Positions 1,771-31,849 of a stretch of DNA of 35,432 bases are shown one piece after another. The notes under the pieces are model-generated. The model was not told the DNA's origin, did not search any database, and saw only the letters and a program-made list of their open reading frames with translations. Made by a program: the position numbers and the translations under genes. This stretch comes from a virus (taxonomy: Duplodnaviria > Heunggongvirae > Uroviricota > Caudoviricetes): positions 1 to 35,432 of the IMG/VR virus record IMGVR_UViG_2737471826_000010. The stretch is one strand, 5' to 3'. Each line of letters opens with the position of its first letter. Position 1 is the stretch's first letter.

Positions 1771-2355
1771 TTATTGTTTGTTTTTTTCGTTCTGGTTGAT
1801 GACAAATTCAATGTAACTTTCGATCTTTGCTTTCTCGGTTTCGGGTAACAATGCGTAGCGCGAGCGATCATAGTTGATGGTCGCAGGGTCATGCGGATGA
1901 ATCAGTAGTTCATATCCGTGACGCCCGAATGCAGATGCAACATTCTCCAGGGTGGAAATGGAAACGCTGACCTCATTGTTTAACAGGCGGCTTATTGTCA
2001 CCTGGGCGACGCCGGATGCGCGGTGAAGTTTTCCCTGAGTTGAAAGGTCGCGGCTTTCACTCATCCAGCGTTCCAGGTTGTGAGCCGCCAGCTGACCTAT
2101 ATCACTCGGGCCGACAGGCTGAAAACCCTCCTGAGAAAGCGAGCGATCAATATCAAGCCAGTTACGGGGTTTATTGGCGGCAGCTTCAATTTTTCGTGCA
2201 ACCTGGTCGCCGATAACCTTCTTGCCAAGAGCCCAGCGGTTTACCAGATTTGCCTGAGTTCCAAGTTTTTCTGCCATCCGCGTCTGAACACCATTGAATT
2301 CACGGTCGATCAAGTCGTTGAGATTTTGCCTGCGGACGTCCTGGATACTTTTCAT
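1771..2355 (-). CDS. CI-like prophage repressor with two helix-turn-helix regions; no peptidase motif seen
   Basis: 194 aa; N-terminal HTH (QTRMAEKLGTQANLVNRWALGKKVIG) and second HTH-like segment (ASGVAQVTISRLLNNE); divergent from cro across the operator; no GDSM or Ser/Lys autocleavage signature by eye. Confidence 0.65.
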   Translation of the reverse strand: MKSIQDVRRQNLNDLIDREFNGVQTRMAEKLGTQANLVNRWALGKKVIGDQVARKIEAAANKPRNWLDIDRSLSQEGFQPVGPSDIGQLAAHNLERWMSESRDLSTQGKLHRASGVAQVTISRLLNNEVSVSISTLENVASAFGRHGYELLIHPHDPATINYDRSRYALLPETEKAKIESYIEFVINQNEKNKQ

Positions 2356-2509: not shown

Positions 2510-2740
2510 ATGAGCGATAACGGACATTTCGATTTCAAAAAGCACTGGCTTGCACTTACTCCGGATGAGCGTGAAGCCTTCGCACAGGAAGCCGGAACGA
2601 CGAGTCACTATATCCAGACTCACTTAACAGGTAAGCGCAAAATGCCAGGTAAAGTATTGATGAATGGGCTTTTTAAAGCCTGTAAAACAAGACAATGGCT
2701 GCGCTCAAAAGCAGAACTGGCATACTTCTTCTACTCATGA
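2510..2740 (+). CDS. cro: Cro-like small HTH regulator
   Basis: 76 aa, divergent from repressor; HTH-like REAFAQEAGTTSHYIQTHLTGKRKMP; followed by a terminator. Confidence 0.55.
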   Translation: MSDNGHFDFKKHWLALTPDEREAFAQEAGTTSHYIQTHLTGKRKMPGKVLMNGLFKACKTRQWLRSKAELAYFFYS

Positions 2741-10038: not shown

Positions 10039-10115
10039 TGGCGTGGCATGCAGGATTCGAACCTGCGACCAACCGCTTAGAAGGCGGTTGCTCTGTCCAA
10101 CTGAGCTAATGCCAC
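10039..10115 (-). tRNA. tRNA-Arg (anticodon UCU), argU-like
   Basis: 77 nt; acceptor GTGGCAT/ATGCCAC, D-arm GCTC...GAGC, anticodon stem ACCGC/GCGGT with loop CTTCTAA, T-arm GCAGG-TTCGAAT-CCTGC, encoded CCA; close to E. coli argU with compensatory stem changes. Confidence 0.9.
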
Positions 10116-10437: not shown

Positions 10438-10452
10438 TTACCTGAAAGGTAA
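10438..10452. promoter_or_regulatory. operator site TTACC-TGAAA-GGTAA upstream of morphogenesis genes
   Basis: Perfect palindrome copy about 90 bp upstream of gene 10543. Confidence 0.55.
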
Positions 10453-27225: not shown

Positions 27226-27738
27226 CTATGCAGGCTTTTTGGATTTGTACGAATAATCCCACGGATAAACATTTCTACTAAGTGGAGCTGTATTCGTTCG
27301 TTCATGAAATAATTTTGTGAAATTCAATACGGAATCCATCCAAACTTTTGCGTTAGCTTTGGTGTGTGCGGGCGGGTCCCAATAAGCTAGTAAGGCTGCA
27401 TCTCTTATTTCATTGACTGCATATATGAGATATGCGTTACTGGTTGGTTTTGGCCTGTAATTTCCTTGTTCATCAATCAATCCGTATGACCACTCATCCC
27501 AACACTGTTCAGTACATGAGTATGAATATGATGCATATTCACCAATATTGACATGAACCTTTCTGAGATGGAAACCTAATACTTCGTCTGGTCTTTCAAA
27601 AAGAGTATCTTTTCCCAGATCAGGATGATGACCATGACGCCAGTGTTGTTTAAAAGCATCTTTTAGCGAAATCAGAAAGTCATCAGTTTTAAACTCACCA
27701 GTAGGTATAACCTTCCCGCTATACTCACTCAAAAACAT
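27226..27738 (-). CDS. YafO-like toxin (putative ribosome-dependent mRNA interferase)
   Basis: 170 aa; PDLGKDTLFE, FHLRKVHVNIG and AYLIYAV...ALLAYWDPPAHTKA align with remembered E. coli YafO blocks (PDTFGRDALYD, ERVAHIHLANE, AHLVYCQ...WLLIAILKPEPHKLA); strong RBS AAGGAAGAGGAA; AT-rich. Confidence 0.45.
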   Translation of the reverse strand: MFLSEYSGKVIPTGEFKTDDFLISLKDAFKQHWRHGHHPDLGKDTLFERPDEVLGFHLRKVHVNIGEYASYSYSCTEQCWDEWSYGLIDEQGNYRPKPTSNAYLIYAVNEIRDAALLAYWDPPAHTKANAKVWMDSVLNFTKLFHERTNTAPLSRNVYPWDYSYKSKKPA

Positions 27739-28051
27739 CGAATTCCTCTTCCTTCATATGCGTTTCTAATGAGTTAAGCTGGCGGAAAGATATCTCTTTT
27801 GATTCTGCAGATGAGAGCTTTTTTATCCGCTTTATATTCTTTGTGATAGGAATAGACATTGTATGCACATCAGCGGATGCTCTTGGCTTTGTGCTGATAA
27901 AAATATGGCGCAATGCCGCATTTTCACTATTGAACGAGCCAATAGCTGATTTACGTGCTACAACCTTACCAGTAAAAATACGACTCTTGCTACGCTTTGC
28001 ATGAGTTCCGCTTCTTACCGGACCTCTCATCACGAATCCAAGTTTTGTCAT
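27725..28051 (-). CDS. putative antitoxin/partner of the YafO-like toxin
   Basis: 108 aa, basic N-terminus, acidic C-terminus EEEFDVFE; GGAGA RBS; overlaps the toxin gene by 14 nt; not obviously YafN/Phd-like. Confidence 0.4.
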   Translation of the reverse strand: MTKLGFVMRGPVRSGTHAKRSKSRIFTGKVVARKSAIGSFNSENAALRHIFISTKPRASADVHTMSIPITKNIKRIKKLSSAESKEISFRQLNSLETHMKEEEFDVFE

Positions 28052-28093
28052 CTTTAATCTCCGGTAAGTTACAGGTATAAAATAAAAACAGGT

Positions 28094-28108
28094 TTACCTT
28101 TAAGGTAA
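28094..28108. promoter_or_regulatory. operator site TTACC-TTTAA-GGTAA upstream of toxin-antitoxin-like operon
   Basis: Perfect palindrome copy 43 bp upstream of start codon at 28051. Confidence 0.55.
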
Positions 28109-28180
28109 TAGTACGCTATTCACCCCCAGTCTGCAATCTGTACAGAATTATTTAAAGGCACATCCCTGTGCCGCCGCCAG

Positions 28181-28891
28181 TCAGAAGAACCCTGCCTTGT
28201 CGTTGATGTATTCCGCGTGTGTCTGGATATCACGCAGGCATTTGCTCACACCGACGATGTAGCAGAACATGGTGGTCAGTTCCGCCGCCGCGCCCGATAC
28301 GTCGTGCCCGTCGTCCTGTAACTGGTTCAGCAGATTCATCAGCAGTGAGTTCTCCGTCAGGCCGAGAACACCAGACGGCGAGTGAATCAGGCTGCGGTAG
28401 CCGGGCTTCAGTGGGGCGCTGTAGGTTTTGTTCTCTATCTTCATTGCCTGCATCACTGCTGATGCTGTGGCGTTGGCTACCTGGTCGGCAACCATCTTTA
28501 TGCGTTCTTCCTGCGGGAGCGAGTTTTTAATGTAACTTCCGGTGCGGCGGATCTGAGGAAGTACTTCGCCTGTAACCCATTTGCGAAAGCGGTAGGGGAT
28601 AGTGCCTGGTGTCACCGCATCGCGGCAGCGGAGGATCAGTGTGTAGAGGCCTGACTCGGAGATGATGTTGATCTCTTTTACTCGGCTGTCAAAAATTGCA
28701 CGATGTTCATGCCCTATGTTGAACATAGACCTTTCATCATCATCCAGTTTTTCAAGTGCTTGGGTGACGTTTTGGATACGCAGCGCACTACAAACGTCTT
28801 GGGCTACAAACCATGGTTGGCCATCGATAATGATGGAACGGATAGGGTTAACAGATTCAAATTTGAAGATGGCAGTTTGAGCATTAGCCAT
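28181..28891 (-). CDS. antirepressor with Bro-N domain
   Basis: N-terminal WFVAQDVCSAL...SGLYTLILRCRD...FRKWVTGEVLPQIRRTG is a Bro-N-type signature; start set to ATG 28891 with GGAGA RBS; C-terminal domain paralogous to gene 29207..29464. Confidence 0.65.
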   Translation of the reverse strand: MANAQTAIFKFESVNPIRSIIIDGQPWFVAQDVCSALRIQNVTQALEKLDDDERSMFNIGHEHRAIFDSRVKEINIISESGLYTLILRCRDAVTPGTIPYRFRKWVTGEVLPQIRRTGSYIKNSLPQEERIKMVADQVANATASAVMQAMKIENKTYSAPLKPGYRSLIHSPSGVLGLTENSLLMNLLNQLQDDGHDVSGAAAELTTMFCYIVGVSKCLRDIQTHAEYINDKAGFF

Positions 28892-29048
28892 GGTGGTTAT
28901 CTCCACTTAGTGATTTTAATCACCACCGCAACGCCAATTACTGGTGGTGAACTGGACAAGGTTGGCGTACCGGCCTAAGTGGTACCGGCGTCCTTTCGGA
29001 CCCCTGCCCAGCCCACCATAATTCGGATATAGCTGTGCTTAACGCATA

Positions 29049-29071
29049 AAAAAACCACGTCTGGCGTGGTA
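29049..29071 (-). terminator. rho-independent terminator between the two antirepressor genes
   Basis: Stem ACCACG/CGTGGT, loop TCTGG, minus-strand T7 tract. Confidence 0.6.
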
Positions 29072-29160
29072 TGCGCCACTTAGTAACCCGGGACGCCAAT
29101 CCCGGCACTGGATTTTGCCAGTGCCTGATTACTATGGCACAAGAGGAGTGCGATGTAAAT

Positions 29161-29175
29161 TTACCGCAAAGGTAA
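29161..29175. promoter_or_regulatory. operator site TTACC-GCAAA-GGTAA
   Basis: Perfect palindrome copy between the small and large antirepressor genes. Confidence 0.55.
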
Positions 29176-29206
29176 ATATAAGCACTCCACTTGGTAATTG
29201 CAAACC

Positions 29207-29464
29207 TTATCTGGTTTGTTTTCGTAATTGTTCGGCACAATAGTCGAGATGTGTTTGCAGATCCTGCATAGACATCTGTGAGCTGGTGACGTAGTTAATC
29301 AGTGCAGTCAGTTCGGCAAGTGGGCCATCGACATTAAATCCATCCTTATCGAGATCCCGGAGTAATTTCATCAAGTGCGATCCCTCCACCAGTGACCTGA
29401 CGCCTCCCGGCGTGTGAATCCTTTCGGTAAATCCGTCTTCCAGTGGATAGTGATACCGCTGCAT
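29207..29464 (-). CDS. small antirepressor-domain protein (paralog of Ant C-terminal domain), candidate SOS-induced antirepressor
   Basis: 85 aa from ATG 29464 (GGAGA RBS); IHTPGGVRSLVEGSHLMKLLRDLDKDGFNVDGPLAELT...LQTH aligns with Ant C-terminus IHSPSGVLGLTENSLLMNLLNQLQDDGHDVSGAAAELT...IQTH; LexA box 20 bp upstream. Confidence 0.55.
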   Translation of the reverse strand: MQRYHYPLEDGFTERIHTPGGVRSLVEGSHLMKLLRDLDKDGFNVDGPLAELTALINYVTSSQMSMQDLQTHLDYCAEQLRKQTR

Positions 29465-29483
29465 CTTATCTTCTCCATGCAAT

Positions 29484-29503
29484 AACTGTATAAATATACA
29501 GTA
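29484..29503. promoter_or_regulatory. LexA (SOS) box
   Basis: AACTGTATAAATATACAGTA matches consensus TACTGTATATATATACAGTA at 18 of 20 positions with intact CTGT-N8-ACAG. Confidence 0.7.
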
Positions 29504-29540
29504 TCAAATAATTTGTTTGCTATCCAGCACGTTTTGCAAA

Positions 29541-29555
29541 TTACCCGAAAGGTAA
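29541..29555. promoter_or_regulatory. operator site TTACC-CGAAA-GGTAA
   Basis: Perfect palindrome copy in the divergent region between small antirepressor gene and tailspike gene. Confidence 0.55.
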
Positions 29556-29659
29556 TATCTATTCGTATTTACAGTCTTTCTATCCATATGTGGTTTTTCA
29601 GGTAATAGAATAACCAGATATGCGGCGCAACGGGTGCTGCGACTATCTGGAGATTTAAC

Positions 29660-31849
29660 ATGACGGTCTCAACCGAAGTTGACCACAACGAATACACCGG
29701 TAACGGCGTTACGACATCATTTCCGTATACCTTCCGTATTTTCAAAAAAACCGACCTGGTTGTTCAGGTGTCTGACCTGAACGGGAACGTAACAGAATTG
29801 GTTCTGGATACCGGTTATAAGGTAACTGGAGCGGGCACTTATAGTGGCGGTGAAGTGGTTCTCCCGTCGCCGCTTGCTGCTGGCTGGCGAATTACGATAG
29901 AGCGTGTGCTTGATGTGGTGCAGGAGACTGATCTTCGCAATCAGGGAAAATTTTTCCCCGAAGTTCATGAAGATGCATTTGACTACCTGACGATGCTGAT
30001 CCAGCGATGTTTTGGGTGGTTCAGACGTGCATTGATGAAACCATCTTTGCTTGCAAAATATTACGATGCAAAGCAAAACAAAATTTCTAACCTTGCAGAT
30101 CCATCATTTGAGCAGGACGCTGTAAATAATCGCTCAATGCGTAATTATGTCGATGCTGCAATCGCCGGGGTTGTTGGTGGTTTTGGTTGGTTTATACCGT
30201 CAGGAAGCGAGGCAAGACAACGAACATTTCAAAGCAAAATGAGGGATATAATTTCTCCTTGTGATTACGAAGATAATATTTTTATGATTAAGGAGTTGAT
30301 ATCCAAAGGCAAAAATGCCGCTGTTTTTAACTCATATTATACTTTTGTTATTACTGTTGGCGAATGGGGTGATTACCCTACACTCAAAGATGCAATCATT
30401 GCAGCCCAGTCAATGAGACCTATGTGGGATGGTGGTAATGCTTTCTGCGAAATAAGAATTAAGACCGGGCATATTATCAACTATCAAATTGAATTCAGTT
30501 CAGGTGTTGATTTGTCTTGGATTAAAATAACATCAGAAGACTCAGTGGTTTTCTCTGACACTCGTTTGTTTACTAAAATCGTTAGAACGTATTACGAATA
30601 CAAGTATTTATTTTACATTTGCGATGCAGCAAAAAGTCCTGTATTTGCTATTCAGATCGAAGAAAATAGAGATGATAGCGATGTTTGTGCATTTATTGTA
30701 ACTCAAAAAGCTGAACTTAATTTCTATCCGTATTCAGGTGCTCGAAAGTTCTACGTTGGAATTCATGGTAGTTTTGGTGCAAAAATTAGTGCATATCATA
30801 CCGGATGTGCTCCTGATGAGGAAAGTGTTGCTGCATATATGCCAGAAGGGTATTACGTATGTGATTTTTCTTATAGCAGATACTCTTCCCTGCAACTGGT
30901 AAATAATGTCAAGGCATCAATGCCTGTAAGCAAGTTTGAACGGTGCACAGAGAGTACGGTTGCGTCAGTTAATTGTATTTATAATGTTAAAGCAGATTTT
31001 CAGGGGTCAAGTGCAAGCTATTGTTATATAGGATGGAATGTAAGAGATGGTTCAAATGTTAATATACGCGACCATAAAACTATACATTGCTCATATCGTG
31101 GATTAACCTGCATTCATACAGCATATGTTGATGCAAGACGACATGACGTTGAAGAAAGTGATGCAGAAACAAGTGGTAAAGTCCTTGAACCAAATATTGA
31201 AAAAGGTTTTTATGGATGTGCACTTGGTGTGCGTATTGATGGTGCGGGTTGCGTTGATGTTGCTGGTAATGATATGCGCAATTGTGGAACAGCCGTTAAT
31301 GCAGACACTGGTGCTGTTATTTCAGGAAAGGCTGTAGATATCTCAGGGGCTGAGCTGGGATTTGATTGCCATGCAGGAGCATCTGTTAATTTTCCAAGGC
31401 TATGGGGTACAGATATAAAAAAATTAATGCACCTCCAAGATGGTGTAAGGTTTAACTCTAATATTTGTCATGTATTTGGTGCAAATCCCACAAAAGATAT
31501 TAGATGGATTGATGTAGAGAGATCTGAAGCTTCTTTTATGAATGCAACGCTGGATGCAGATTCAGGATTTATTGCCGACTGTGGTAGTAGGATAACCATT
31601 GAAGGAAGTAAAGTTAAAAACCAAACAATAAGAAGTTTTTTTGGATCATATGTGGCTATAAATAATACTGTTGCTGACAGAACTTATTCAGATATAGCCG
31701 ATGTTCCGCAGTTGACTATTAGTGGAGGATCTTTTATTTCTGCTACAGGATATTCTAATTCTGACTCCAGCCCTCTGAGGTTGAGCACAACACGAAATAC
31801 ACTTGGCGTTGGAGGAGCCATATTTTCAACCAATGGGGAAGTTTCATGA
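29660..31849 (+). CDS. tailspike / tail fiber with T7-type N-terminal adaptor and divergent receptor-binding domain
   Basis: N-terminus EYTGNGVTTSFPYTFRIF...GWRITIERV resembles podovirus tail-fiber head-binding domain; C-terminal ~550 aa Cys/Gly/Asn-rich; DNA becomes AT-rich after ~30200. Confidence 0.7.
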   Translation: MTVSTEVDHNEYTGNGVTTSFPYTFRIFKKTDLVVQVSDLNGNVTELVLDTGYKVTGAGTYSGGEVVLPSPLAAGWRITIERVLDVVQETDLRNQGKFFPEVHEDAFDYLTMLIQRCFGWFRRALMKPSLLAKYYDAKQNKISNLADPSFEQDAVNNRSMRNYVDAAIAGVVGGFGWFIPSGSEARQRTFQSKMRDIISPCDYEDNIFMIKELISKGKNAAVFNSYYTFVITVGEWGDYPTLKDAIIAAQSMRPMWDGGNAFCEIRIKTGHIINYQIEFSSGVDLSWIKITSEDSVVFSDTRLFTKIVRTYYEYKYLFYICDAAKSPVFAIQIEENRDDSDVCAFIVTQKAELNFYPYSGARKFYVGIHGSFGAKISAYHTGCAPDEESVAAYMPEGYYVCDFSYSRYSSLQLVNNVKASMPVSKFERCTESTVASVNCIYNVKADFQGSSASYCYIGWNVRDGSNVNIRDHKTIHCSYRGLTCIHTAYVDARRHDVEESDAETSGKVLEPNIEKGFYGCALGVRIDGAGCVDVAGNDMRNCGTAVNADTGAVISGKAVDISGAELGFDCHAGASVNFPRLWGTDIKKLMHLQDGVRFNSNICHVFGANPTKDIRWIDVERSEASFMNATLDADSGFIADCGSRITIEGSKVKNQTIRSFFGSYVAINNTVADRTYSDIADVPQLTISGGSFISATGYSNSDSSPLRLSTTRNTLGVGGAIFSTNGEVS

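What the first reader, a model, noticed from the sequence alone, without database searches (positions are those of the whole stretch)
28907..29206. Structured 300-bp non-coding region between the two antirepressor genes: candidate small RNA or leader
Contains an operator copy (29161..29175) abutting a candidate minus-strand promoter, an 8-bp perfect hairpin (GGCACTGG/CCAGTGCC, 29105..29126), a strong terminator (29049..29071), three copies of CCACTTAG plus one inverted copy, a direct repeat of GTACCGGC and a 14-bp palindrome GTGATT-TT-AATCAC (28911..28924) next to the Ant RBS. On the minus strand the promoter-hairpin-terminator arrangement could give an ~85-nt RNA. By analogy with P22 sar RNA it could be an antisense or leader RNA controlling Ant synthesis, or an RNA that modifies termination.
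Basis: inference. Interest (0 to 1): 0.5.

Follow-up and report, generated by a model that had tools for sequence, protein, structure and literature searches.

The report
P1-type antisense RNA switch controlling antirepressor
The 300-bp "non-coding" gap is a real but already well-known kind of phage RNA switch: a short terminated leader RNA plus a C4-type antisense RNA, as in the phage P1 immI region, which together keep the prophage's antirepressor gene from being translated.

Summary
Rfam models match an IsrK-type leader sRNA (29124..29048, 67.7 bits) and, 24 nt after its terminator, a C4 antisense RNA (29023..28940, 66 bits).

The repeated CCACTTAG and ACGCCAA words are the recognition code. 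C4 carries b' (CCACUUAG, in a hairpin loop) and a' (ACGCCAA). Their complements lie upstream in the leader (a1, b1) and downstream (a2, and b2 overlapping the ant Shine-Dalgarno).

The geometry is nearly that of the annotated P1 immI region: 7-nt a sites, 8-nt b sites, a2 3-4 nt after C4, and the start codon 10-11 nt after b2. Across 52 distinct C4 variants from phages and IMG/VR contigs, a' and b' covary with both target pairs (a: 47/52 in the same locus versus 0/1474 between loci).

The window is an epsilon15/phiV10-like (Uetakevirus) E. coli prophage, and the RNAs are unannotated in the public records I inspected.

Most likely mechanism: C4 blocks ant translation, and the leader RNA carries decoy sites.

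Verdict: a new member of a known kind, of modest interest. The P22 sar analogy is wrong in mechanism.

The parts
29161..29175 (.). Repressor operator TTACC-N5-GGTAA. It lies at -51..-37 relative to the predicted leader start and abuts the -35 hexamer. It also sits immediately downstream of the -10 of an upstream promoter-like site.
   Evidence: Thirteen copies occur in the window against 0.49 expected, including the repressor/cro divergent region. The same position is occupied in phiV10, ZX5, Tyrion, Kp4865-1 and ST11-OXA245phi3.2, with variable central bases. P1 Op51 abuts the -35 of P51a in the same way.
29175..29203 (-). Upstream promoter-like site, TTGCAA-17-TATATT. The operator would cover its start site.
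   Evidence: Consensus scan. Both hexamers are kept in the related Uetakevirus loci. Activity was not shown.
29131..29159 (-). Leader promoter: -35 TTTACA, 17 nt spacer, extended -10 TG-n-CATAGT. The predicted start is G29124.
   Evidence: Consensus scan. The start coincides with position 1 of the isrK model. The -10-to-start spacing of 7 nt matches the annotated P51b of P1. Unrelated sigma-70 promoters sit at the same distance in the sequences of the 17 loci (my reading of them).
29048..29124 (-). IsrK-type leader sRNA, 77 nt. It has hairpin 1 (29124..29105), hairpin 2 showing a1 in its loop (29104..29089), single-stranded b1, and a terminator.
   Evidence: Rfam RF01394: 67.7 bits (gathering score 50), E = 1.4e-12, full length. 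It is overlapped by c4-a1b1 (RF03163) at 42.6 bits, below that family's gathering score of 46.7. Eight of 15 predicted pairs show compensatory changes in 15 loci.
29093..29099 (-). a1 = UUGGCGU, complementary to a' of C4.
   Evidence: In P1, a1 is annotated at the equivalent position.
29076..29083 (-). b1 = CUAAGUGG, complementary to b' of C4.
29048..29070 (-). Intrinsic terminator of the leader RNA: a 6-bp stem, a 5-nt loop and U7 (stem -7.1 kcal/mol).
   Evidence: All 97 distinct leaders examined have a U-run 15-58 nt (mode 24) before C4, and 94 of them have a hairpin of -6 kcal/mol or better just before it.
28940..29023 (-). C4 antisense RNA (model match). By homology with the annotated 77-nt P1 C4, the mature RNA is predicted at 29017..28943 (75 nt).
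   Evidence: Rfam RF01695: 66 bits (gathering score 45), E = 7.5e-11, full length, no non-canonical pairs flagged. Thirteen of 25 pairs show compensatory changes in 16 loci including P1.
28975..28982 (-). b' = CCACUUAG, in the loop of C4 hairpin 2. Its 5' CC acts as an anti-Shine-Dalgarno.
28962..28968 (-). a' = ACGCCAA, a single-stranded linker inside C4.
28931..28937 (-). a2 = UUGGCGU, starting 3 nt after the C4 model match.
   Evidence: In P1, a2 starts 4 nt after C4.
28903..28910 (-). b2 = CUAAGUGG. Its last two G are the first two bases of the ant Shine-Dalgarno GGAG (28904..28901).
   Evidence: The start codon follows b2 by 11 nt here and by 10 nt in P1.
28920..28927 (-). Conserved box GGUGGUGA between a2 and b2. 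It is complementary both to the C4 3' arm and to CACCAU(G) at the ant start codon.
   Evidence: 55 distinct leaders. Both strands are nearly invariant, so no covariation test is possible.
28181..28891 (-). ant, the regulated gene: a 236-aa Bro-N antirepressor.
   Evidence: Pfam Bro-N, 9.5e-20, and PHROG 130 'anti-repressor Ant', 4.8e-56. Over-expression of the Bro-N antirepressor of the related phage ZX5 lowers lysogeny (PMC9782041).

Best explanation
The gap is the leader of an immI-type antirepressor operon of an epsilon15/phiV10-like prophage. It is built like the c4-icd-ant leader of phage P1.

1. Transcription starts at about 29124 from a sigma-70 promoter that the prophage repressor's operator abuts.
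2. Most transcripts probably stop at the intrinsic terminator. This gives a 77-nt IsrK-type RNA that carries sites a1 and b1.
3. Read-through transcripts contain the C4 RNA. It is probably excised, by RNase P at its 5' end as in P1, to give a roughly 75-nt stable RNA.
4. C4 uses two exposed words, a' (ACGCCAA) and b' (CCACUUAG), to pair with a2 and b2 in the ant leader. b2 overlaps the Shine-Dalgarno sequence, so ribosomes cannot start and Ant is not made. In P1 the untranslated message is then ended by Rho.
5. The a1/b1 sites bind the same C4 words. The short leader RNA can therefore compete with the ant leader for C4 and relieve repression when it is abundant.

**Shown here:** family membership, structure, the site layout, and three-way covariation of the words.

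**Inferred:** transcription start, processing, translational block, Rho polarity, and the decoy role.
For: **Family matches**
- Both Rfam matches are full length and above their gathering scores.

**Layout compared with P1**
- The layout matches the annotated P1 record almost base for base: an operator abutting a -35, a1 of 7 nt, b1 of 8 nt, C4, a2 3-4 nt after C4, b2 20-22 nt later, and the start codon 10-11 nt after b2.
- The P1 leader itself matches the isrK model at 35 bits.

**The tandem pair in other loci**
- All 16 other phage loci fetched carry a C4 match above its gathering score, directly preceded by an isrK-type leader; the leader is above its gathering score in 15 (Aaphi23: 36 bits).
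- The annotated gene downstream is an Ant, Bro-N or Rha type in most of those loci.

**Covariation of the recognition words**
- In 17 loci, C4's words change together with both target pairs.
- In 52 distinct C4 variants from 135 modules:

| Word | At least 7 perfect pairs to both own targets | Same test between unrelated loci |
|---|---|---|
| a' | 47/52 | 0/1474 |
| b' | 37/52 | 6/2368 |

- a and b assort independently. The window's b' is found with a different a' in L038.

**Structure**
- Helices of both RNAs show compensatory changes.

**Published experiments**
- In Gifsy-1, IsrK supplied in trans raises antirepressor translation 139-fold.
- Mutations at positions that I place in a' by numbering on a close homologue (L006; a 3-nt offset is assumed, and the Gifsy-1 sequence was not fetched) derepress it.
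- The compensated a1/a' double mutants stay 56-82 times above wild type (PMC4825925). That fits an uncompensated a'-a2 pairing.
Against: - There are no expression data for this prophage. The start site, termination efficiency, processing and repression are all inferred.
- Each duplex is short (7 and 8 bp).
- C4 lies behind a good terminator, so its supply depends on unmeasured read-through.
- There is no icd gene. In P1, icd is the directly repressed cistron and couples translation to Rho polarity.
- The published Gifsy-1 model explains the same locus type differently, as activation through an upstream ORF.
- In that system a1 mutations in cis raise rather than lower expression. The role of a1/b1 is therefore not a simple decoy.
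Confidence: 0.8

Rival explanations
1. The Gifsy-1 IsrK model applies as published. The long transcript folds into a translationally silent form. The short leader RNA binds it in trans and opens the ribosome site of an upstream ORF (orf45) that overlaps the C4 region. Ribosomes translating that ORF then switch on ant by translational coupling.
For: The locus type is the same: isrK, then the STnc1160/orf45 region, then an antirepressor (PMC4825925). The conserved AUGGUGG at the C4 5' end (29019) could start such an ORF.
Against: In the window, that ORF is only 14 codons. It stops at a UAG inside the b' loop (28977..28975), 84 nt before the ant start, so coupling is implausible. Across 17 loci its length is 8, 14, 15 or 32-36 codons, or it is fused to the downstream gene. 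This is the behaviour of an RNA gene, not of a conserved coding region. The model does not explain why a2/b2 covary with C4.
Confidence: 0.08
2. The locus uses P4 CI / N15 CA-type control. The processed C4-like RNA pairs with a1/b1 on nascent leader transcripts and increases termination at the leader terminator. Ant is therefore controlled mainly at the level of transcription read-through.
For: b1 ends only 5 nt before the terminator stem. a1/b1 are kept complementary to C4 as strictly as a2/b2. All 97 leaders have a terminator-like U-run between b1 and C4, and 94 have a stable hairpin before it. In Gifsy-1, a1 mutations in cis raise expression, and IsrK in trans raises a transcriptional fusion 8-fold. 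The authors themselves raise this idea.
Against: I found no convincing conserved anti-terminator that b1 pairing would disrupt; the only alternative pairing seen by eye is about 5 bp. b2 overlaps the Shine-Dalgarno in nearly every locus, which points to a translational block. This mechanism could coexist with the main one.
Confidence: 0.2
3. One reading: a single RNA of about 85 nt acts like P22 sar, a true cis-antisense or leader RNA.
For: A promoter-hairpin-terminator unit does exist.
Against: No plus-strand promoter-like site exists in 28000..30000. The leader RNA is in the same sense as ant and has no complementarity to the ant ribosome site. Instead it carries the same words as the ant leader (a1 = a2, b1 = b2). 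The complementary words sit in the second RNA.
Confidence: 0.02
4. The region encodes protein, either the 100-codon ORF 29240..28938 or small ORFs, and the repeats are incidental.
For: ORFs are listed there. Some database records annotate the C4 region as part of 'antirepressor', 'ash family' or 'immunity region' proteins.
Against: The ORF runs across a promoter, a terminator and two covariance-model matches. Homologous regions differ by indels that are not multiples of three. The substitution pattern is compensatory in helices. ORF lengths are not conserved.
Confidence: 0.02

Closest known systems
Phage P1/P7 immI operon: C4 antisense RNA with a1/b1 and a2/b2 sites (Citron & Schuster 1990; Rfam RF01695 and RF03163)
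   Same: Same RNA family by covariance model. Same order and spacing of operator/promoter, a1 (7 nt), b1 (8 nt), terminator-like hairpin, C4, a2 and b2 at the ribosome site of the first gene of an antirepressor operon. The wider logic is also the same. The primary repressor has many scattered operators, and there is a LexA site in front of another gene: coi, a second antirepressor, in P1; the 85-aa Ant-C-terminal paralogue, of unknown function, here.
   Different: The recognition words differ: P1 has a' CUGUCAA and b' CACUAAC (read); the window has ACGCCAA and CCACUUAG. There is no icd, so b2 sits directly on the ant ribosome site. Ant is a 236-aa Bro-N protein. The operator is a palindrome, not the asymmetric 17-mer of C1 (the latter from my own knowledge). 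The host element is an integrated podovirus, not a plasmid myovirus. The leader matches isrK strongly here (68 bits) and weakly in P1 (35 bits).
Salmonella Gifsy-1 IsrK - STnc1160/orf45 - AnrP locus (Hershko-Shalev et al. 2016, PMC4825925; Rfam RF01394)
   Same: Same leader sRNA family above its gathering score. Same tandem arrangement followed by an antirepressor. A short terminated form and a read-through form are expected.
   Different: The orf45 equivalent is cut to 14 codons here. No anti-terminator Q gene lies upstream. Instead there is a small gene preceded by a LexA box. Hfq binding and the activating role were not tested.
Satellite phage P4 CI RNA with seqA/seqC, and N15 CA RNA (own knowledge, plus the summary in PMC4825925)
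   Same: A small RNA processed from the leader of the operon it controls. It has complementary sites both upstream and downstream of itself.
   Different: Those systems act by premature transcription termination and do not mask a ribosome site. No Rfam match to them was obtained here.
Phage P22 sar RNA
   Same: A small RNA that limits Ant synthesis in an immI region next to the tailspike gene.
   Different: sar is transcribed from the opposite strand across the ant ribosome site. There is no plus-strand promoter-like site in the scanned region here, and the regulators are same-strand RNAs acting through short words.

Membership tests
C4 antisense RNA (Rfam RF01695; P1/P7 c4) | Sequence and structure match to the covariance model at or above the curated gathering score | tested here: met
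   66.0 bits against 45, E = 7.5e-11, model positions 1-87 of 87.
C4 antisense RNA (Rfam RF01695; P1/P7 c4) | A long closing stem, two internal hairpins and a single-stranded linker, supported by covariation | tested here: met
   The window copy aligns with no non-canonical pairs. Thirteen of 25 consensus pairs have compensatory changes in 16 loci including P1.
C4 antisense RNA (Rfam RF01695; P1/P7 c4) | Two exposed words (a', b') complementary to a2/b2 just downstream, with b2 at the ribosome site of the next gene | tested here: met
   a' ACGCCAA pairs with a2 at 28937..28931. b' CCACUUAG pairs with b2 at 28910..28903, which overlaps GGAG. Covariation was seen in 52 variants.
C4 antisense RNA (Rfam RF01695; P1/P7 c4) | A second copy of the targets (a1/b1) upstream, in the same transcript | tested here: met
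   a1 at 29099..29093 and b1 at 29083..29076. The c4-a1b1 model scores 42.6 bits, just below its gathering score of 46.7.
C4 antisense RNA (Rfam RF01695; P1/P7 c4) | Excision from the leader by RNase P, and repression of antirepressor synthesis in vivo | not testable with these tools
   Needs RNA end mapping and reporter assays.
P1 immI operon (c4-icd-ant) | An icd cistron between C4 and ant, whose translation is the direct target | tested here: not met
   The ant ATG (28891) follows b2 by 11 nt with no intervening ORF. The window works like immI, but the operon is not the P1 operon.
IsrK sRNA (Rfam RF01394) | Covariance-model match at or above the gathering score, ending in an intrinsic terminator | tested here: met
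   67.7 bits against 50, positions 1-77 of 77. The terminator is confirmed.
IsrK sRNA (Rfam RF01394) | Its own promoter placing the start at model position 1 | tested here: inconclusive
   TTTACA-17-TGnCATAGT ends 7 nt before 29124. The arrangement is the same in P1 (P51b) and in the sequences of 16 other loci. No start-site data exist.
IsrK sRNA (Rfam RF01394) | An orf45-like upstream ORF that couples to antirepressor translation (Gifsy-1 model) | tested here: not met
   The ORF is 14 codons and ends 84 nt before ant.
IsrK sRNA (Rfam RF01394) | Hfq association | not testable with these tools
   The Gifsy-1 paper itself reports Hfq-independent action.
P22 sar-type cis-antisense RNA | A promoter on the strand opposite to ant, giving an RNA fully complementary to the ant ribosome site | tested here: not met
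   No plus-strand promoter-like site in 28000..30000. No Rfam match on the plus strand.

The most novel reading that the evidence does not exclude
The IsrK-type leader RNA and the C4 RNA may form a general three-RNA switch of temperate phages.

- The terminated leader would be a dedicated anti-antisense decoy. It shows the same two-word address as the antirepressor message.
- The ratio of decoy to C4 would then decide whether the antirepressor is made. That ratio is set by promoter strength, terminator read-through and processing.
- In this prophage, SOS-induced transcription from the LexA-box promoter upstream would read into the leader and flood the cell with a1/b1 sites. DNA damage would thereby be coupled to Ant release.
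- The independently assorting a and b words would constitute a combinatorial immunity code. At least 16 a cores and 37 b cores were seen.
- This view would also reinterpret the Gifsy-1 IsrK results as titration of a C4 homologue.
Probability: 0.3. Interest if true: 0.5.

Novelty: new member of a known kind. Interest (0 to 1): 0.3.

Why it matters
- **Mechanism.** It explains how epsilon15/phiV10-like prophages keep their Bro-N antirepressor silent. These prophages, or at least this leader, are present in 457 of 5426 complete E. coli genomes. The one experimental paper on such a phage, ZX5, says the way the repressor and antirepressor act "remains to be unraveled" and mentions no RNA.
- **Annotation.** It exposes a gap. 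Two Rfam-recognisable RNA genes are absent from the GenBank phage records and the one RefSeq genome record I inspected. The C4 region is sometimes annotated as protein.
- **Specificity.** The word differences between this prophage (b' CCACUUAG) and phiV10/ZX5 (b' CCUUUUAG) predict distinct immI specificities among otherwise 92-94% identical phages.
- **Scope.** None of this changes the understanding of the mechanism class, which has been known from P1 since 1990.

Tried and rejected
- **Protein coding.** I considered the 100-codon and 34-codon ORFs across the gap as coding regions. I rejected them because of frame-breaking indels, compensatory helix changes and non-conserved uORF length.
- **Third b site.** I considered the CCACTTGG at 29187 as a third b site. 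I rejected it because phiV10 keeps it although its b word differs.
- **Anti-terminator.** I looked by eye for an anti-terminator that b1 pairing would control. I found only a roughly 5-bp alternative (UGGCG/CGCCA), too weak and too poorly conserved to support.
- **Start-codon helix.** I tested whether the GGUGGUGA box and start-codon helix covary. Both strands are invariant, so pairs within a locus and between loci score alike and nothing can be concluded.
- **First covariation run.** My first run used upstream windows that were too narrow and under-counted a1/b1. I repeated it with wider windows and the same control.
- **Literature.** I could not retrieve the P1 genome paper or a Gifsy-1 record. 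The mapping of the Gifsy-1 mutant positions onto a1/a' therefore rests on a close homologue (L006) with a 3-nt offset, and is an inference.
- **Family scans.** NCBIfam gave nothing for Ant or the small ORF.

Full report
**1. The observation**

Reading 28500..29700 on both strands confirms most of the listed features.

- The operator TTACCGCAAAGGTAA is at 29161..29175.
- The 8-bp hairpin is at 29105..29126.
- The minus-strand terminator is ACCACG-CCAGA-CGUGGU followed by U7, 29070..29048.
- The GTACCGGC repeat is present.

These features are not chance events.

| Feature | Observed | Expected or control |
|---|---|---|
| TTACC-N5-GGTAA in the window | 13 | 0.49 |
| CCACTTAG in the window | 4 | 0.65 |
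| Fold of the 255-nt leader | z = -4.46 | better than all 200 shuffles |

Two corrections are needed. Only two direct copies and one inverted copy of CCACTTAG lie in the region. The terminated RNA is 77 nt, not about 85 nt.

**2. What it is**

A scan of the window against Rfam gives two adjacent, full-length matches on the minus strand, both above their gathering scores.

| Family | Coordinates | Bits | Gathering score | E-value |
|---|---|---|---|---|
| isrK (RF01394) | 29124..29048 | 67.7 | 50 | 1.4e-12 |
| C4 antisense RNA (RF01695) | 29023..28940 | 66.0 | 45 | 7.5e-11 |

The "a1, b1 targets of C4" model (RF03163) overlaps the isrK match at 42.6 bits, just below its gathering score of 46.7.

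- C4 shows b' = CCACUUAG (28982..28975) in a hairpin loop and a' = ACGCCAA (28968..28962) in a single-stranded linker.
- The leader carries a1 = UUGGCGU (29099..29093, in the loop of hairpin 2) and b1 = CUAAGUGG (29083..29076).
- The ant leader carries a2 = UUGGCGU (28937..28931) and b2 = CUAAGUGG (28910..28903).
- b2 overlaps the Shine-Dalgarno GGAG, 11 nt before the ant ATG at 28891.

**3. Comparison with the annotated P1 record**

NC_005856 annotates the following in order.

| Feature in P1 | Record coordinates |
|---|---|
| C1 operator abutting the -35 of P51a | 48140..48156 |
| P51b | 48195..48223 |
| a1 (7 nt) | 48255..48261 |
| b1 (8 nt) | 48269..48276 |
| C4 (77 nt) | 48343..48419 |
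| a2 (7 nt, 4 nt after C4) | 48423..48429 |
| b2 (8 nt) | 48452..48459 |
| icd start codon, 10 nt after b2 | 48470 |

The window reproduces this geometry almost base for base.

The P1 leader also matches the isrK model (35 bits). It has the same two hairpins, a1 in the second loop and a terminator-like hairpin, and the match starts 7 nt after the -10 of P51b. This is the same distance as between CATAGT (29136..29131) and G29124 here.

"IsrK" and "the a1b1 leader of c4" are therefore the same element.

By homology with P1, the mature C4 should span 29017..28943.

**4. Comparative evidence**

The window is an epsilon15/phiV10-like podovirus (Uetakevirus). It is 98% identical to phage HEMP4 over 28147..29697 and 92-94% to phiV10, TL-2011b and ZX5 there. 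The RNA region itself is only about 80% identical to phiV10.

Sixteen further phage loci all carry a C4 match above its gathering score, directly preceded by an isrK-type leader; the leader is above its gathering score in 15 and scores 36 bits in Aaphi23. They come from Uetakeviruses of Escherichia, Enterobacter and Klebsiella, Stx phages, Salmonella 118970_sal3, a Yersinia phage, a Vibrio P2-like phage and Aaphi23. The gene annotated downstream is an Ant, Bro-N or Rha type in most of them.

In these loci the words change, and all three copies change together. Examples:

- phiV10: b' CCUUUUAG with b1 = b2 = CUAAAAGG.
- Kp4865-1: a' GUCUCAA with a1 = a2 = UUGAGAC.
- Vibrio O395: a' GUACUAA and b' CCGAUAG.

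A pattern scan of IMG/VR added more loci, giving 135 modules with 52 distinct C4 cores.

| Word | At least 7 perfect pairs to both own targets | Same test between unrelated loci |
|---|---|---|
| a' | 47/52 | 0/1474 |
| b' | 37/52 | 6/2368 |

Several of the remaining cases are G-U wobbles.

The a and b words assort independently. The window's b' occurs with a' AGACCAA in L038.

The helices of both RNAs show compensatory changes: 8 of 15 pairs for the leader and 13 of 25 for C4.

All 97 distinct leaders have a U-run 15-58 nt before C4, and 94 have a stable hairpin just before it. A discrete terminated leader RNA is therefore a constant part of the module.

**5. Context**

- **ant:** 28891..28181 encodes a 236-aa Bro-N antirepressor. 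Over-expression of the Bro-N antirepressor of the related phage ZX5 lowers lysogeny (PMC9782041).
- **Operator:** the palindrome also lies next to the likely primary repressor gene (2355..1771), upstream of the opposite-strand ORF 2510..2740. That repressor has two helix-turn-helix domains and no S24 peptidase domain. The operator is scattered through the genome, as C1 operators are in P1.
- **Upstream "antirepressor":** this is an 85-aa protein (29464..29207, PHROG 450, function unknown). It is 43% identical to the last 72 residues of Ant.
- **LexA box:** the small ORF is preceded by a perfect LexA box, CTGTATAAATATACAG (29486..29501). The box is kept in phiV10, ZX5, Tyrion and Phi05_1999B.
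- **Parallel with P1:** P1 likewise has a LexA site at the coi promoter in addition to C4-controlled ant.

**6. Mechanism**

Shown here: family membership, structure, the site layout, and selection on C4 pairing to both a1/b1 and a2/b2.

Inferred from the P1 literature (Citron & Schuster 1990 and later work, summarised in PMC8198154):

- C4 is cut out of read-through transcripts.
- It pairs with a2/b2.
- It hides the Shine-Dalgarno sequence and blocks Ant synthesis.

The repressor operator sits at -51..-37 of the leader promoter, and over the start site of an upstream promoter-like element. It probably adds transcriptional control, as Op51 does in P1.

The role of a1/b1 is less certain. The covariation shows they must bind C4.

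- In Gifsy-1, extra IsrK in trans raises antirepressor translation 139-fold. This fits titration of the C4 homologue STnc1160.
- In the same system, a1 mutations in cis also raise expression. This fits a contribution to termination or folding.
- The compensated a1/a' double mutants in that study remain 56-82 times above wild type. This is expected if a'-a2 pairing, left uncompensated, is the main repressive contact. That reading is my inference, and the mapping of the mutant positions rests on a homologue (L006).

**7. Rivals**

- **Gifsy-1 uORF-coupling model.** It is unlikely here because the orf45 equivalent is 14 codons long and ends in the b' loop, and its length is not conserved.
- **P4/N15-type termination control.** It remains possible as a second layer.
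- **sar-type cis-antisense RNA.** It is excluded by the absence of a plus-strand promoter-like site, and because the leader carries the same sense words as the ant message.
- **Protein coding across the gap.** It is excluded by indels and compensatory substitutions.

**8. Novelty**

The mechanism class and both RNA families are long known. I found no paper describing them in epsilon15-like phages. Neither phiV10, ZX5, Tyrion nor the RefSeq genome with the identical sequence annotates them. SfV and Ayreon records do label the homologous stretch "immunity region".

The Gifsy-1 paper links IsrK to P4 seqA but does not cite P1 c4. The equivalence shown here is a useful tidy-up, not a discovery.

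Verdict: a real, functional-looking element and a new member of a known kind. Interest 0.3.

Noticed in passing
window 29071..29076 and 29042..29047 (minus strand): GCGCAU just before the leader terminator stem pairs with AUGCGU just after the U-run. This clamps the terminator in read-through RNA. The two sides covary in other loci (GCGACAA/UUGUCGC, CACACA/UGUGUG, and CGGACA/UGUCCG in P1). At least 5 perfect pairs occur in 43/68 distinct leaders against 11.7% of cross-locus pairs. It may be a processing or stabilising helix and lies outside the Rfam isrK model.
   Followed up: partly
window 28920..28927, 28943..28950 and 28890..28896 (minus strand): The box GGUGGUGA between a2 and b2 is complementary both to the 3' arm of C4 (UCACCACC) and to CACCAU(G) at the ant start codon. 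It could either compete with the C4 stem in the precursor or shut the start codon into a hairpin whose loop shows b2 and the Shine-Dalgarno. Both strands are almost invariant in 55 leaders, so covariation cannot test it.
   Followed up: partly
window 29486..29501 and 29207..29464 (minus-strand gene): A perfect LexA box, CTGTATAAATATACAG, precedes an 85-aa ORF (PHROG 450, function unknown). The ORF is 43% identical to the C-terminal 72 residues of Ant. The box is conserved in phiV10, ZX5, Tyrion and Phi05_1999B but was not found in the two Klebsiella relatives. This is a candidate SOS-inducible small antirepressor. The terminator scan listed no terminator between it and the leader RNA, so SOS transcripts would read into a1/b1.
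   Followed up: partly
window 1637, 1699, 2411, 2459, 2796, 4742, 4804, 7275, 7293, 10438, 28094, 29161, 29541: Thirteen copies of TTACC-N5-GGTAA are scattered over early, late and accessory regions, including next to the repressor gene, upstream of the opposite-strand ORF 2510..2740. This suggests one repressor controlling many dispersed promoters, as C1 does in P1. The candidate repressor (2355..1771) has two HTH domains and no autocleavage domain.
   Followed up: partly
window 29145..29188: The operator sits inside a longer inverted repeat, GGAGTGC...GCACTCC. In phiV10 the equivalent stretch is a perfect 41-bp palindrome, and the -35 TTTACA seen in the window is absent there.
   Followed up: no
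window 10039..10115 (minus strand): A tRNA-Arg (anticodon UCU) gene lies in the prophage, next to an operator copy at 10438.
   Followed up: no
L006, L012 and L013 (phage records KU927493, LC567825, LC567829); also SfV and Ayreon: In several public records the C4 RNA region is annotated as the N-terminal part of an 'antirepressor', as a 'hypothetical protein', an 'ash family protein' or an 'immunity region' ORF. The conserved AUGGUGG at the C4 5' end opens a reading frame of variable length that sometimes fuses with the downstream gene.
   Followed up: partly
window 27226..28051 (minus strand) and operator at 28094: Two ORFs lie downstream of ant: 108 aa (PHROG 5933) and 170 aa (PHROG 1651, with a weak YafO-toxin-like match). 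They have their own operator copy upstream and may be a separately repressed accessory pair.
   Followed up: no
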